This document shows, one piece after another, positions 7,741-22,306 of a stretch of DNA of 64,000 nucleotides. The position numbers and the translations under genes are program-made. The stretch comes from Vairimorpha necatrix. Its lineage: Eukaryota. The stretch is taken from the NCBI GenBank assembly GCA_036630325.1, contig CP142735.1, positions 496,001 through 560,000 of the forward strand, in the 5' to 3' direction. The notes under the pieces are model-generated. The model worked only from the letters and a program-made list of their open reading frames with translations. It was not told the DNA's origin and made no database searches. The first letter of the stretch is position 1, and the number at the start of each line of letters is the position of its first letter.

Positions 7741-9775
7741 TGTCATGTATCCGGGGTACATGGCCATTTTTATAATATCTCTCTAAATAGTTTTTAATGT
7801 AAATATGTTTATTGATGGTTTTAGTCTCTCTCTTGGATTCTATATATTCCATACCCTTCACAGACAGACTTTCTTTTATAGTTTATTTTTAATTTATTAA
7901 TTGTTGTCAACGCTAAACACAAACATTGGCGTACTTACGAATGTAGTAACGACCATCCAACTTTCGTTTGTTTGTTTGTTTGTGTGACTCATCATTACAT
8001 GCCGTTTAAGATGTTTGACAGCTGATCGTTTTGACAGTTGTCTATGTGATGTAGTCATGTACATCACATTCTGCCCTCTCCTAAAGCTTTAAATTTTTTA
8101 AAGATACCACTTCATTCTTATATATTCCTGACCACTCTTCATGTTTCAATATTTCGTCCGGCGGTTCTACTATTATATTATTTTTATTAATTTTTATTAT
8201 TTCCTGCTTATTCTTCGTGTTTATATTTTCTAACTTTTCTTTGTGCTTATTTCTTATTTTATATGTCTTCATTTGTTTATCTTTATCACGGTATTTTATT
8301 TTTGTTAATTTAATATCTCGATTTCTTTTATTGTCATCTTTATTATTTTTTATCGCATTGGCAAACTTTTGGTCAATATCTGTGTTTCTTTTAATATTTT
8401 TATCTTTTACTTTTAATATGTTTGTTCCAACTACATTCTGTAGTTTCTCATGGCTAAGCGTTTTCGCTATTATTTCATCATTTTTCGATGTTTCATGTTT
8501 TGTTTTCACTTCTTTTGAATTTTTTTTATTAGTTACTTCTTGATTTTTTATTTTAATATTCTCGACTTTATTTTCTCTATTAAATACTACCTCTTCTGGT
8601 ATGTTATTTTTCTTTATTTCTCTAATTGTAAATAATTTTTTTGGAACAATATTCGGCATTTTTATGTTTTCTAGATTTTTCTTAAGCTGCTCTGAGGTAT
8701 TGTTTAGTCTAAAGCAATCCTCTGTATTGTGCGTACTGTTTTTATGGAGGCGGCACCATTTATTTTTCTTATAACCGTCCTTTTCGGTTTCAAATTTGGA
8801 TCTATCATTATGAACTGATTCATATTTTATTCCACGCCTTTTTCCTTCAAAAATCAAACACTCTTCCACTGTTTCTAAATACGTCATGGTTTCTTCGACG
8901 TTATTTTTTCCAAGCTCTAATATCTTAAGACGAGTGGAAAAACCTAATCCCAAGAAAAAACTCTCTCTTAACTTTCTTTCGTATTCTTTTCTCGTTAAGT
9001 TTTCTAGTCTAGCATACTGATCTACTAGATTCTTTATTTCAAACAAATATTCTTTAATGTATCTAAAATTAATTTGTTTGCATGCCTGTAGCTTTAAATG
9101 TAGCATCTCAGGACTTGATCTTTGACTTAAATTTTTCTCAATATATCTTCTTATTTTCTCTAAATCTGGTAATGCAAATATTTGTTGCAATGCGGGATCT
9201 CGCACTAATTCTGCTAAGGCGATTTTCTCTTTTTTAAAATCCCATTTTTTGTTCTTAGAAATTTGGTTGAACTCTTCAAACCATGTATCTAACTCTATTT
9301 CATTAAATTCTTTGATATTTTTTATTATGCTTAAGCTTTTCTTAACTTCTAAATCGATCTCTTCGATCGTATACTTAAATTCTAACGCTTCCTTAGTTAC
9401 TGCGTTTTTGTCCCCTTTCGATACTTTGTGGGAATTGAATTCAATTATGTCATGTATCCGGGGTACATGGCCATTTTTATAATATCTCTCTAAATAGTTT
9501 TTAATGTAAATATGTTTATTGATGGTTTTAGTCTCTCTCTTGGATTCTATATATTCCATACCCTTCACAGACAGACTTTCTTTTATAGTTTATTTTTAAT
9601 TTATTAATTGTTGTCAACGCTAAACACAAACATTGGCGTACTTACGAATGTAGTAACGACCATCCAACTTTCGTTTGTTTGTTTGTTTGTGTGACTCATC
9701 ATTACATGCCGTTTAAGATGTTTGACAGCTGATCGTTTTGACAGTTGTCTATGTGATGTAGTCATGTACATCACA
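7741..9775 (-). mobile_element. Non-autonomous Gag-only LTR retrotransposon (element A), 2035 bp
   Basis: 328-bp LTRs 7741-8068 and 9448-9775, identical by eye, TG...CA; TSD ACATG (7736-7740, 9776-9780); PPT GGAGAGGGCAGAA next to the 3' LTR. Confidence 0.95.
8081..9559 (-). CDS. gag: Gag-like protein of element A (first ATG at 9559, inside the 5' LTR)
   Basis: Retrotransposon capsid-like region (LDTWFEEF...FFLGL) and CX2HX4HX4C knuckle WCRLHKNSTHNTEDC; Lys-rich tail; no PR, RT or IN core motifs. Confidence 0.85.
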   Translation of the reverse strand: MEYIESKRETKTINKHIYIKNYLERYYKNGHVPRIHDIIEFNSHKVSKGDKNAVTKEALEFKYTIEEIDLEVKKSLSIIKNIKEFNEIELDTWFEEFNQISKNKKWDFKKEKIALAELVRDPALQQIFALPDLEKIRRYIEKNLSQRSSPEMLHLKLQACKQINFRYIKEYLFEIKNLVDQYARLENLTRKEYERKLRESFFLGLGFSTRLKILELGKNNVEETMTYLETVEECLIFEGKRRGIKYESVHNDRSKFETEKDGYKKNKWCRLHKNSTHNTEDCFRLNNTSEQLKKNLENIKMPNIVPKKLFTIREIKKNNIPEEVVFNRENKVENIKIKNQEVTNKKNSKEVKTKHETSKNDEIIAKTLSHEKLQNVVGTNILKVKDKNIKRNTDIDQKFANAIKNNKDDNKRNRDIKLTKIKYRDKDKQMKTYKIRNKHKEKLENINTKNKQEIIKINKNNIIVEPPDEILKHEEWSGIYKNEVVSLKNLKL

Positions 9776-19976: not shown

Positions 19977-22306
19977 TGTGGTATCCCGGGGAAGCTCTCC
20001 CGGTGATAAAGTACCACTCTAAAATAGAATTAATATATTGGCCTTTATTTTTAAACGTCTCTTTATACTCTCTCATAGCTGTCTTGTTACTATGTCTAAA
20101 CACTCCTTGTGTTTGTCTCTCCATCTTCCTTCTGTACCCTTCCTTTCTAGAATTTTATTTATAGTAAATAAAATTCTAGAAAATTCAATGATAGATTTGA
20201 CAGGGAGTGAAATAAAATAAATGTTGTAGAATTACAGTCTACAACATCCTGCCCCCTCTCAAAGCTTTAACTGTTTCCTGTGAAACCATCCTGATAATTT
20301 ATATACTTTATACCTTAATTTAGTTTTTTCCTTTAGATTCGCCCTGTATGGACTTATAAATTTTTTATTAAGTTTGTTTGTCGAGAAGTTCCTCGCATAG
20401 AATAGAACTTCGACCTTATTTTTCTGCTTACACATTTTTATCTTGGTCTTTTTCTTTCTTGGCCGATCTGATGCATTAAAAATTACCTTACCTTTATAAG
20501 GATCATAAAATCTTATTTTTGAAATCTTATCTCGATATTTTACTACAGGGTTAACCTGATCTTTTGTTTTATCTTTAATAATTTTACCAGTTTTACATTC
20601 TGTTACTACTTTCTTATTTTTATTCTTTTTAACCCAATTTTGTTTTCCAAATACTGTATTTCTTTCTTTCTTATGTTTATTCCTACCCAATTTCACATTA
20701 CTATCTTTCGTTTTGGCTGTATAATTATTTACTTTATTATGATCTTCATTTTCAATTTTTTCATCTTCCACTACGCATAGTCTTTCAATCATTATTTCGT
20801 CCAATGTTTTTTCCGCTACCTCTTCATACCCAATGATTTTGACAATCTTCTCGTTCACAATAACTACCTTATTTTTATAATCTAAAATGCAATTGTTGTT
20901 AAACAAGAAATCTCTGCCTAGAATCACATCATACATGCATCTATCAAAGACGTATGGTTCAATAGAGTAACTCTTGCTTACTCCTTCAAATTTAAAGTCT
21001 AATTCTGTTGACATATTAGTGGTAATTACTTCTCCATTGGCTATAACCGTTCTTATAGATTTGTTTTCTCTAAGCTTTAAATTTAATCTTTTAGCTAATC
21101 CTTCAGATATAAAGCTTCTGCTTGCTCCGCTGTCTAACAAAATGTCCACGTTACTTTCCTTAATATTCGCTCTAACAACCATTTCTCTAATGTTGTCTTT
21201 TTCTTCTTCCATGACATTCATTTCATTTCTTCTTGGTAAATCCCTATAGTTTTGATTTCCTTTTTCTTTATTCATGAAGCAATCAACAGAATTATGTCCG
21301 TTGTGCTTGTGGTATTTGCACCACTTCTTTTGTGTTGAAAAGTAATTATTTTTATGTGTTCGTTCAAATGTTTCGAACTTTTTTGAATCATTTCTTGGAT
21401 TATTTAAATTAAGTATTTCTTCTTCCATCGTTAACAATTTCTTCATATATTCCTCAAGGTTGTGAACATTGATATTATCAATTAATTTTCCTCTAGTGTT
21501 GTCACCTAGCCCATTCTTAAAGTACTCCCATAATTTTCTGTTATACTCGTCCTTGTTTATCTTATATGCAAGACTATAATATTTAACGTATTTATTAATG
21601 TACTCATAGTATTCCTTGATGGTTACAAAATCGATTTGTTTTGCATTAGTAAGTTTCTTAATCCATCCCTCAGCTTTCTTCACGCTGTATACATAACTGA
21701 AAATTCTTTCTTGTATTTTCATTAAATCTCCTTTAAATATTTTGTCGTCTAAGGACTTATCAGAAATCAAGTCTCTTAGTATGAGCTCATATTGCTCTGG
21801 ATTCCATTTGTTTCTCGTGGTAATCTTCTCAAATGTTTTGAACCACTCATACATATCAAATTTTTGAATATCTTCTATAATATTCAGTTCTTCTTCAATT
21901 TTAAATTCCGTTCCTGGAATAGTGTAACTTAATTTAATTTTCTTCTGGTTTACTTCACCATAATTAGTTTTATTATCATTCACTAGTAATTTTGTACTCG
22001 CACTTGGCACTCCTACACTCGCTCTTGAATTCAAGTTGTGGTATCCCGGGGAAGCTCTCCCGGTGATAAAGTACCACTCTAAAATAGAATTAATATATTG
22101 GCCTTTATTTTTAAACGTCTCTTTATACTCTCTCATAGCTGTCTTGTTACTATGTCTAAACACTCCTTGTGTTTGTCTCTCGTTCATCCTTCTGTACCCT
22201 TCCTTTCTAGAATTTTATTTATAGTAAATAAAATTCTAGAAAATTCAATGATAGATTTGACAGGGAGTGAAATAAAATAAATGTTGTAGAATTACAGTCT
22301 ACAACA
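19977..22306 (-). mobile_element. Non-autonomous Gag-protease LTR retrotransposon (element B), 2330 bp
   Basis: 270-bp LTRs 19977-20246 and 22037-22306 (3 differences), TG...CA; TSD CTATA (19972-19976, 22307-22311); PPT GAGAGGGGGCAGGA. Confidence 0.95.
20259..22187 (-). CDS. gag: Gag-aspartic protease protein of element B, with integrase-like C-terminal tail; ATG inside the 5' LTR
   Basis: Knuckle WCKYHKHNGHNSVDC; protease LLDSGASRSFI...ILGRDFL; tail KLNKKFISPY...WFHRKQLKL resembling GPY/F; no RT, RNase H or DDE motifs. Confidence 0.9.
   Translation of the reverse strand: MNERQTQGVFRHSNKTAMREYKETFKNKGQYINSILEWYFITGRASPGYHNLNSRASVGVPSASTKLLVNDNKTNYGEVNQKKIKLSYTIPGTEFKIEEELNIIEDIQKFDMYEWFKTFEKITTRNKWNPEQYELILRDLISDKSLDDKIFKGDLMKIQERIFSYVYSVKKAEGWIKKLTNAKQIDFVTIKEYYEYINKYVKYYSLAYKINKDEYNRKLWEYFKNGLGDNTRGKLIDNINVHNLEEYMKKLLTMEEEILNLNNPRNDSKKFETFERTHKNNYFSTQKKWCKYHKHNGHNSVDCFMNKEKGNQNYRDLPRRNEMNVMEEEKDNIREMVVRANIKESNVDILLDSGASRSFISEGLAKRLNLKLRENKSIRTVIANGEVITTNMSTELDFKFEGVSKSYSIEPYVFDRCMYDVILGRDFLFNNNCILDYKNKVVIVNEKIVKIIGYEEVAEKTLDEIMIERLCVVEDEKIENEDHNKVNNYTAKTKDSNVKLGRNKHKKERNTVFGKQNWVKKNKNKKVVTECKTGKIIKDKTKDQVNPVVKYRDKISKIRFYDPYKGKVIFNASDRPRKKKTKIKMCKQKNKVEVLFYARNFSTNKLNKKFISPYRANLKEKTKLRYKVYKLSGWFHRKQLKL

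What the first reader, a model, noticed from the sequence alone, without database searches (positions are those of the whole stretch)
7741..22306. Family of young non-autonomous LTR elements with one wall-to-wall ORF running from inside the 5' LTR to the PPT
Seen: elements A (7741-9775) and B (19977-22306) have perfect 5-bp TSDs and identical or near-identical LTRs, yet encode only Gag (A) or Gag plus protease (B). Each ORF starts inside the 5' LTR after a shared GAAGGGT, crosses the LTR end and stops at the PPT. Both end in LKL* (TTAAAGCTTT(AG/GA)GAG.GGGCAG.A|TGT), carry a CX2HX4HX4C knuckle and share KYRDK in the tail. Every RT-encoding element in the window is decayed, while these two ORFs are intact. 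Known: Gag-only LTR elements (TR-GAG) are described in plants. Inference: these are gag fused in frame to the extreme integrase C-terminus, kept open by selection and mobilised by RT/IN in trans. Their LTRs are otherwise dissimilar, so this looks like a stable strategy and not a single deletion accident.
Basis: partly seen in the sequence, partly recalled or inferred. Interest (0 to 1): 0.8.

Follow-up and report, generated by a model that had tools for sequence, protein, structure and literature searches.

The report
Reverse-transcriptase-less retrotransposon families in a microsporidian
Two short jumping genes in a microsporidian parasite's genome have lost the enzyme that copies them but keep spreading and keep a working coat-protein gene, a freeloading strategy described mainly in plants, and they belong to a group that has a self-complementary sequence where the usual tRNA primer site should be.

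Summary
A (7741-9775) and B (19977-22306) are young Ty3/gypsy LTR elements without RT. They are two families, not accidents: 12 A-type and 9 B-type copies with the same layout and 21 different TSDs. Gag and protease are under purifying selection (dN/dS 0.08-0.47). The tail drifts at the amino-acid level but stays open. B ends in an integrase C-terminal remnant; A keeps only about 12 such residues.

The LTR-to-PPT ORF is not special to them. Autonomous relatives have it too, and all 18 tRNA-primed elements examined also start inside the 5' LTR, mostly behind a host-type CCC/GGG motif. RT-less forms sit in about seven Gag lineages and include Gag-protease-integrase types.

The whole clade has a covarying 12-14 bp palindrome in place of a tRNA primer site (47 of 49 elements). 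This scan had already noted the palindrome and the in-LTR start on other DNA of this genome; its look-ups showed no note on the RT-less families.

Verdict: a new variant of TR-GAG/Quinta-type non-autonomous elements. The actual helper, expression and the priming mechanism are not shown.

The parts
7741..9775 (-). Element A, 2,035 bp Gag-only non-autonomous LTR element; TSD ACATG at 7736-7740 and 9776-9780
9448..9775 (-). A 5' LTR, 328 bp; holds the GGG-type motif (9560-9566), the ATG (9559) and the first 37 codons, including the conserved NYLERYYKNG-type peptide
9433..9446 (.). A: 14-bp perfect palindrome at the primer-binding-site position, translated in frame
8081..9559 (-). A ORF, 492 aa: Gag, knuckle, K/N-rich linker, last ~12 residues of integrase
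8714..8755 (-). A CX2HX4HX4C knuckle (residues 269-282)
8125..8713 (-). A linker, 56% A, no DNA match in the full-length elements held; dN/dS 0.5-0.8 against L001 but kept open; part is 70% identical to the tail of another Gag-only family (L103/L104)
8069..8082 (-). A polypurine tract, overlapping the stop codon
7741..8068 (-). A 3' LTR, 328/328 identical to the 5' LTR
19977..22306 (-). Element B, 2,330 bp Gag-protease non-autonomous LTR element; TSD CTATA at 19972-19976 and 22307-22311
22037..22306 (-). B 5' LTR, 270 bp; GGG-type motif (22196-22202), ATG (22187), first 50 codons including SILEWYFITG
22024..22035 (.). B: 12-bp perfect palindrome at the primer-binding-site position, read in a different frame from A's
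20259..22187 (-). B ORF, 642 aa: Gag, knuckle, protease, linker, integrase C-terminal remnant
21279..21320 (-). B CX2HX4HX4C knuckle (residues 290-303)
20907..21176 (-). B aspartyl protease with an intact DSG motif
20400..20770 (-). B linker, no DNA match to the full-length relative L098; shared by both B subfamilies
20262..20459 (-). B integrase C-terminal remnant (KFISPY ... WFHRKQLKL), without zinc finger or catalytic core
20247..20260 (-). B polypurine tract
19977..20246 (-). B 3' LTR; differs from the 5' LTR only at LTR positions 121, 124 and 125, around the start codon

Best explanation
A and B are two long-lived non-autonomous Ty3/gypsy families of a microsporidian. Each arose by internal deletion of pol from a single-ORF gag-pol parent and kept the parent's LTRs, primer-site palindrome, PPT and in-LTR start codon (shown). 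Each makes its own Gag (B also protease) from a full-length RNA, is packaged with a related autonomous element that supplies RT and integrase, and recombines with siblings and with full-length partners by template switching (mobility, selection and mosaic copies shown; co-packaging inferred). The start inside the LTR follows from the host's near-absent 5' UTRs: the LTR promoter ends in a CCC/GGG motif and the first AUG follows at once, so R-U5 and the primer site are coding (inferred; start site not mapped). The tail is kept open for the sake of translation itself, most likely so that the stop stays next to the RNA 3' end and the RNA escapes nonsense-mediated decay, not for an integrase function (open frame shown; NMD inferred).
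For: 12 A and 9 B copies with the same layout, 21 different TSDs, 20 perfect. LTR pairs 96-100% identical. Frame intact from the LTR ATG to 12 nt before the 3' LTR in 7 of 12 A and 4 of 9 B copies. dN/dS against the window copies: gag 0.09-0.20 (A) and 0.08-0.17 (B), protease 0.09-0.47, linker and tail 0.24-2.0 on few sites. Tail: at least 229 variant alleles over 10 A copies, 8.9 stops expected, 1 seen; at least 125 over 5 B copies, 5.8 expected, one copy with stops in the last 4 codons. Indels between open-frame copies all keep frame. L036 shares 99.6% of its LTR and 96% of its first 1,495 nt with full-length L098, while its linker is 78% like B's. Mosaic identity profiles. In-LTR ATG frame in 71 of 79 elements, including 16 intact gag-pol relatives and all 18 tRNA-primed elements; CCC/GGG within 20 nt upstream in 55 of 71. 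Microsporidian 5' UTRs under 7 nt with CCC/GGG motifs (PMC2803860, abstract). UPF1-like gene in the genome. An independent run holds a contig across A's gag-linker junction (X2, 8410-9064).
Against: No intact full-length element with A-type or B-type LTRs was found. The closest relatives (L091-L093, L098) are all broken, and A shares only LTR ends, palindrome and PPT with L091. The 16 closest LTR-only hits to A are solo or partial LTRs, and only 40 of 135 candidates were scored. No RNA, protein or start-site data. The CCC/GGG count has no computed background, and the elements are related. The stop-codon test ignores phylogeny, dropped copies whose frame could not be traced (2 A, 4 B), and alignment noise may inflate the allele count. 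5 of 12 A and 5 of 9 B copies have a stop or frame break. SMG1C is reported lost in microsporidia (PMC5709506, passages), and NMD activity here is untested. The A-rich internal regions carry many AATAAA/ATTAAA hexamers, so full-length RNA is not guaranteed.
Confidence: 0.75

Rival explanations
1. The linker and integrase-like tail do a job as protein: a basic nucleic-acid chaperone or an integrase-binding tip that recruits the helper's Pol into the particle.
For: The frame is kept open to the parental stop. The tails are strongly basic. A and L103/L104 share a tail segment although their Gags belong to different lineages. The V. apis protein P0207 has a similar K-rich tail.
Against: dN/dS near or above 1 in B's linker and IN tail between subfamilies (1.1-1.5), and 0.5-0.8 in A's linker. 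The A and B tails are not alignable. The A-family's last residues vary between subfamilies.
Confidence: 0.2
2. The short elements persist partly as host-useful or self-limiting restriction factors: a Gag that poisons helper particles, as Ty1 p22 does.
For: Gag is under purifying selection while pol is gone. Ty1 p22 is a truncated Gag that inhibits retrotransposition (PMC5408680, passages). The closest full-length relatives are decayed.
Against: The copies are young, dispersed and still inserting, and they keep all cis signals. They encode a whole Gag, not a half, and B keeps protease.
Confidence: 0.07
3. They are post-insertion deletions or assembly collapses of ordinary gag-pol elements.
For: The closest full-length relatives exist in the same genome.
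Against: 21 copies on 10 of the 12 contigs share the deleted layout with their own TSDs. The linker is shared among copies and absent from full-length elements. An independent run bridges the junction.
Confidence: 0.02

Closest known systems
TR-GAG elements of plants (Chaparro et al. 2015, PMC4350172; abstract and passages seen)
   Same: Under 4 kb, TG...CA LTRs, 5-bp TSD, PPT, one ORF with Gag and a zinc knuckle, at least two copies, signs of recent activity.
   Different: Host is a microsporidian. No tRNA PBS (TR-GAG1 has tRNA-Leu). ORF starts in the LTR and runs to the PPT. B carries a protease and an integrase remnant, which the TR-GAG filter excludes.
RLG_Quinta / RLG_Cereba of wheat, and the semi-autonomous Sabrina and WHAM (PMC11302176; passages seen)
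   Same: Gypsy-derived element with Gag plus a domain of unknown function, no RT or integrase, shared LTR ends, PBS and PPT with a partner, and gag swapped between lineages by recombination. This is the closest functional match.
   Different: No centromere link tested here. Several parallel RT-less lineages in one 15-Mb genome, including Gag-protease-integrase forms. Palindrome instead of a tRNA PBS.
Microsporidian single-polyprotein Ty3/gypsy groups (Parisot et al. 2014, PMC4202319; passages seen)
   Same: The parents of A and B are single-ORF gag-pol elements. Named relatives come from Nosema, Vairimorpha, Hamiltosporidium and Dictyocoela.
   Different: The passages seen mention neither PBS nor non-autonomous forms ('PBS', 'primer', 'nonautonomous': 0 occurrences). 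Its supplement was not read.
Ty1 of Saccharomyces (PMC3592414, 10.1101/176248; passages seen; LTR length recalled)
   Same: Short 5' UTR (53 nt from +238), so gag begins inside the LTR and the priming signals lie in coding sequence.
   Different: Ty1 is copia-type, tRNA-primed and autonomous, with frameshifted gag-pol.
Conserved Hairpin Site of fungal GalEa copia elements (Donnart et al. 2017, PMC5445492; passages seen)
   Same: A palindrome sits at the PBS position in place of a tRNA match; mechanism unknown.
   Different: Here the elements are gypsy-type, the palindrome is 12-14 bp and coding, and no second complementary box follows (best match 4-7 nt within 120 nt).

Membership tests
TR-GAG | LTRs with TG...CA, 5-bp TSD, PPT, length under 4 kb | tested here: met
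TR-GAG | At least two copies with different TSDs | tested here: met
   12 A and 9 B copies, 21 different TSDs
TR-GAG | Single ORF with Gag similarity | tested here: met
   Aligns with Gag of full-length elements; Atlas lead to Retrotrans_gag/Ty3_capsid clusters; no Pfam Gag hit; single-sequence fold uninformative
TR-GAG | No protease, integrase, RT or RNase H similarity | tested here: not met
   Met by A apart from ~12 terminal residues; not met by B (protease, IN C-terminal remnant)
TR-GAG | Primer-binding site (tRNA-complementary) | tested here: not met
   Best match to a tRNA 3' end plus CCA is 2 nt for A and B, against 9-14 nt in 17 of 18 elements of the other clades; 48 distinct tRNA sequences
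Quinta-type non-autonomous partner | Intact Gag under purifying selection, RT and IN core absent | tested here: met
Quinta-type non-autonomous partner | Autonomous partner sharing LTR ends, primer site and PPT | tested here: inconclusive
   B subfamily 2 shares 99.6% LTR with L098; A shares only ends, palindrome and PPT with L091; these relatives are broken
Quinta-type non-autonomous partner | Cross-mobilisation and co-expression with the partner | not testable with these tools
   No RNA holder listed
Ty3/gypsy (Metaviridae-type) | Parent order Gag-PR-RT-RH-IN and RT closest to Ty3 | tested here: met
   L123 domain order; best solved-structure match Ty3 Gag-Pol, E 3e-126
Tf1-type self-priming elements | PBS complementary to the 5' end of the element's own RNA | tested here: not met
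   Best complement anywhere in the LTR 5-8 nt, against 4-6 nt in tRNA-primed controls; RNA 5' end not mapped
GalEa Conserved Hairpin Site | Palindrome directly after the 5' LTR | tested here: met
   47 of 49 elements, background 142 of 8,573 windows
GalEa Conserved Hairpin Site | Second complementary 9-bp box 12-41 bp downstream; copia superfamily | tested here: not met
   Downstream complement 4-7 nt only; elements are gypsy-type

The most novel reading that the evidence does not exclude
This clade primes reverse transcription without tRNA, by pairing two genomic RNAs through the palindromic site, so one RNA serves as primer for the other. That would let an RT-less RNA pair directly with a helper RNA carrying the same palindrome, and would explain why RT-less lineages (Gag only, Gag-PR, Gag-IN, Gag-PR-IN) arose about seven times in this clade and why they swap modules so often. 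Support: the centre of the palindrome changes in matched pairs (AATT, AGCT, ATAT), which a hairpin loop would not require; it is read in different frames; most short families share the palindrome core of their nearest full-length family. Exceptions: L111-L114 against L122, and L108 against L134-L136. I did not survey the tRNA-primed clades for RT-less forms, so the link to priming is untested.
Probability: 0.3. Interest if true: 0.8.

Novelty: new variant of a known kind. Interest (0 to 1): 0.55.

Why it matters
It extends Gag-keeping non-autonomous LTR elements, described mainly in plants, to a highly reduced fungal-related parasite, and shows a graded series of pol losses in one small genome, including forms that keep protease and the integrase catalytic motifs but not RT. 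The open but near-neutral tail is a natural test of whether RNA surveillance shapes retroelement anatomy. The shared palindromic primer site gives several matched helper/freeloader pairs in which an unexplained priming signal can be mapped from natural material. Annotation tools that ask for RT or a tRNA PBS will miss these elements or call them host genes.

Tried and rejected
Word-indexed protein search with A's ORF: no hit among 8,000 scored candidates; it shows nothing about absence. Single-sequence AlphaFold model of A's Gag: pLDDT 35.6, not used. Metagenome scan with the autonomous alignment: 35 loci; the four I checked (L213, L214, L216, L221) showed none of the listed palindrome 10-mers in their first 900 nt and the other 31 were not examined, so there is no DNA-level test of the palindrome in another species. 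Sequencing runs: no RNA holder listed; summed contig depth over A in X1 is not interpretable, and whether X1 has an empty site at 9775 could not be read. Origin of the linker: no profile hit to PR, RT, RH or IN core; a weak signal to the PR-RT spacer (3.9 and 11.7 bits, above 40 shuffles, among 48 comparisons) is inconclusive. KYRDK as a shared motif: chance level. tRNA-half priming: internal matches of 6-9 nt to varying tRNAs, no pattern. Tf1-type fold-back priming and a GalEa-type second box: not found. Two-strand folding favours dimers more for palindrome elements (-7 to -16 kcal/mol, 15 elements) than for three tRNA-primed controls (-5 to -6), but this follows from the palindrome and is not independent. 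A closer full-length partner for A: 16 LTR-only loci examined, none next to a PPT or palindrome; wider flanks of the weaker hits were not examined. Dating B by its three LTR differences: rejected, since they cluster at the ATG and match another subfamily. Literature searches for microsporidian non-autonomous LTR elements or their PBS found nothing relevant; the library lacks most subscription papers, and no supplements were read.
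Full report
Setting. The window is G000:C10:496001-560000, in a 15.0-Mb assembly of 12 contigs. The DNA is about 20-35% GC. The closest named relatives of its retroelements are microsporidian, and five of six host-type ORFs checked have CCC shortly before an early ATG. 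I treat the host as a microsporidian.

Observation. Both elements are as described. A has 328/328 identical LTRs, TSD ACATG and a 492-aa ORF from ATG 9559. B has 267/270 LTRs, TSD CTATA and a 642-aa ORF from ATG 22187. Both stop 12 nt before the 3' LTR. B has a protease, A has no Pfam hit. A's N-terminal 290 aa resemble Gag clusters in the ESM Atlas (a lead) and align at 45-62% with the Gag of full-length elements. KYRDK is at chance level for one shared 5-mer (874 of 5,000 shuffles).

They are families. A DNA search gave 12 whole-length A copies (73-100%) and 9 whole-length B copies (71-100%). These are lower bounds: 40 of 135 and 40 of 41 candidates were scored. All 21 have different 5-bp TSDs, 20 perfect and one with a mismatch, and LTR pairs 96-100% identical. 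The frame runs unbroken from the LTR ATG to the parental stop in 7 of 12 A and 4 of 9 B copies; two more stop 19 and 4 codons early and the rest are broken. Solo LTRs with their own TSDs exist for both. A contig from an independent run spans A's gag-linker junction. Post-insertion deletion and assembly collapse are thereby excluded.

Selection. On copies with a long open frame (8 A, 5 B), gag has dN/dS 0.09-0.20 in A and 0.08-0.17 in B, and protease 0.09-0.47. The linker and tail have 0.5-0.8 in A's linker and 1.1-1.5 between B subfamilies. Yet stops are scarce: at least 229 variant alleles behind the knuckle in 10 A copies should give about 8.9 stops and give 1; 125 in 5 B copies should give 5.8, and one copy has stops in its last four codons. 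Indels between open-frame copies are multiples of three or compensating pairs, while 1-2 nt shifts appear only in comparisons with broken copies. The test is rough: it ignores the tree and leaves out two A and four B copies. The pattern is selection for an open frame with little regard to the residues. A UPF1-like gene is present, so avoidance of nonsense-mediated decay is my preferred reason; this is inference, and SMG1C is reported lost in microsporidia (PMC5709506, passages).

What the tail is. B matches full-length L098 over nt 1-1536 (72%) and 1908-2330 (76%), and its last 66 residues score as integrase C-terminus. A matches L091 over gag (67%) and over only 64 nt at the PPT (88%). The A-rich linkers between (54-56% A) match no full-length element held, but are shared within each family; part of A's is 70% identical to the tail of a Gag-only family from another Gag lineage. 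Copies are mosaics: L009 has an A-like gag start and an L010-like tail, and L036 has the LTR (99.6%) and first 1,495 nt (96%) of L098 with a B-type linker. This fits template switching between short elements and full-length partners. The closest full-length relatives (L091-L093, L098) are all broken, so the working helper is not identified. Intact gag-pol elements of the same clade are present in other subfamilies.

The wall-to-wall ORF is inherited. Sixteen intact gag-pol relatives (frames of 1,237-1,294 codons) start inside the 5' LTR and end at the PPT, often in W.H...KL*. All 18 tRNA-primed elements examined also start in the LTR. Overall 71 of 79 elements have such a frame, and 55 of the 71 have CCC or GGG within 20 nt upstream (no background computed, my hand estimate at 30% GC is about 1 in 8). 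The LTR-coded peptide (about S-I-L-E-x-Y-L-x-x-G) is conserved across the clade. Microsporidian 5' UTRs are under 7 nt and follow CCC- or GGG-like motifs (PMC2803860, abstract), which explains GAAGGGT. Ty1 is a precedent: transcription from +238 and a 53-nt UTR (passages; LTR length recalled; the lead came from an earlier scan note). The elements were picked as Gag or RT hits, not at random, and loci whose LTR ends could not be called were dropped (L094-L096, L099-L102, L110, L117, L121, L131, L141, L195, L206, L211).

The strategy recurs. A Gag tree places RT-less elements in about seven subclades, each beside a different full-length family: A, B, L103/L104, L111-L116, L105 group, L118/L142 and L108 (deep branches poorly supported). 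Their contents range from Gag only to Gag-PR-IN with integrase catalytic motifs kept. Among the 150 best hits of B in 1.84 billion proteins, four combine Gag with integrase parts in frame without RT, and two long ones are Gag-only. P0116 matches L036 and P0122 has a Gag almost identical to L118, so I do not count them as independent. P0207 is a V. apis protein; its flanks were not seen.

Primer site. Directly after the 5' LTR, 47 of 49 elements of this clade carry a perfect palindrome of 12 bp or more, against 142 of 8,573 background windows with 10 bp or more. The two exceptions are decayed copies. None matches a tRNA 3' end, whereas 17 of 18 elements of the other clades match tRNA-Ser, -Leu or -Pro over 9-14 nt (48 distinct tRNA sequences). 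The core varies in matched pairs (TTGAATTCAA, TTGAGCTCAA, TTGATATCAA, ATGAATTCAT, ATGAGCTCAT, TTAAATTTAA) and is read in different frames. An RT tree of 36 sequences separates palindrome from tRNA-primed elements with support 1.0, without an outgroup. Matched change at the centre suggests pairing between two RNAs, either as a dimer signal or as primer; neither is shown. A palindrome at this position is known from fungal GalEa copia elements (PMC5445492, passages). I found this before consulting the scan's notes, which already record the palindrome and the in-LTR start on other pieces of this genome. Look-ups by sequence and by words showed no note on these RT-less families.

Comparison and verdict. 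A works like a TR-GAG element and meets its structural criteria except the tRNA PBS; B fails the no-protease criterion (PMC4350172, abstract and passages). The best functional match is wheat RLG_Quinta: Gag plus an unknown domain, cross-mobilised, with gag swapped between lineages (PMC11302176, passages). Six searches found no description of such elements in microsporidia, and the passages seen of PMC4202319 do not mention them; its supplement and older subscription papers were not read and may list short elements. The finding is real and is a new variant of a known kind. Interest 0.55.

Noticed in passing
window 24191-24239 and 22782-24206 (-): The 49-bp 3' LTR of a decayed tRNA-Pro-primed element supplies the CCC motif, ATG and first five codons of a 474-aa single-copy ORF with no Pfam hit and a hydrophobic C-terminus. 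It may be a host gene that took over an LTR start.
   Followed up: partly
L105-L107, L119, L120 (G000 C11, C1, C7, C4), L142, L118: RT-less elements that keep the integrase HHCC motif and the DDE-region motifs: a 2.8-kb Gag-PR-IN family (787 aa, five copies, three with an unbroken frame; L107 lacks one motif match), a 3.0-kb Gag-PR-IN element and a Gag-IN element.
   Followed up: partly
L103, L104, L111-L116: Further Gag-only families of 1.7-2.1 kb with one ORF from the 5' LTR to the PPT.
   Followed up: partly
window 22182-22186 against 20122-20126: B's three LTR differences move the start codon by one codon in frame; the 5' version matches the one in both LTRs of L035, so it looks recombinant. 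It may mark the U3/R border.
   Followed up: partly
U5 ends of A, B and relatives: A predicted stem-loop lies just before the LTR end in most palindrome-clade elements folded, with little sequence conservation. Two of three tRNA-primed controls also fold there; no shuffle control.
   Followed up: partly
P0207 (V. apis EQB61505.1, 553 aa): Gag with the LTR-type N-terminal peptide, knuckle and a K-rich tail, no pol; best match in G000 is 45%. Possibly the same kind of element in another species; flanks not seen.
   Followed up: partly
window 37914-41183 and 59808-63088: A duplicated block of about 3.3 kb, 74-92% identical, with paralogous secreted-looking repeat proteins of 416 and 441 codons.
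   Followed up: no
window 19727-19976: B is inserted about 250 bp upstream of a pyruvate-dehydrogenase-beta-like gene in the same orientation; its 3' LTR read-out frame stops one codon into the flank.
   Followed up: no
window 42930-44223 and 49283-50350: Two elements with terminal inverted repeats of 84 and 73 nt around transposase-like ORFs.
   Followed up: no
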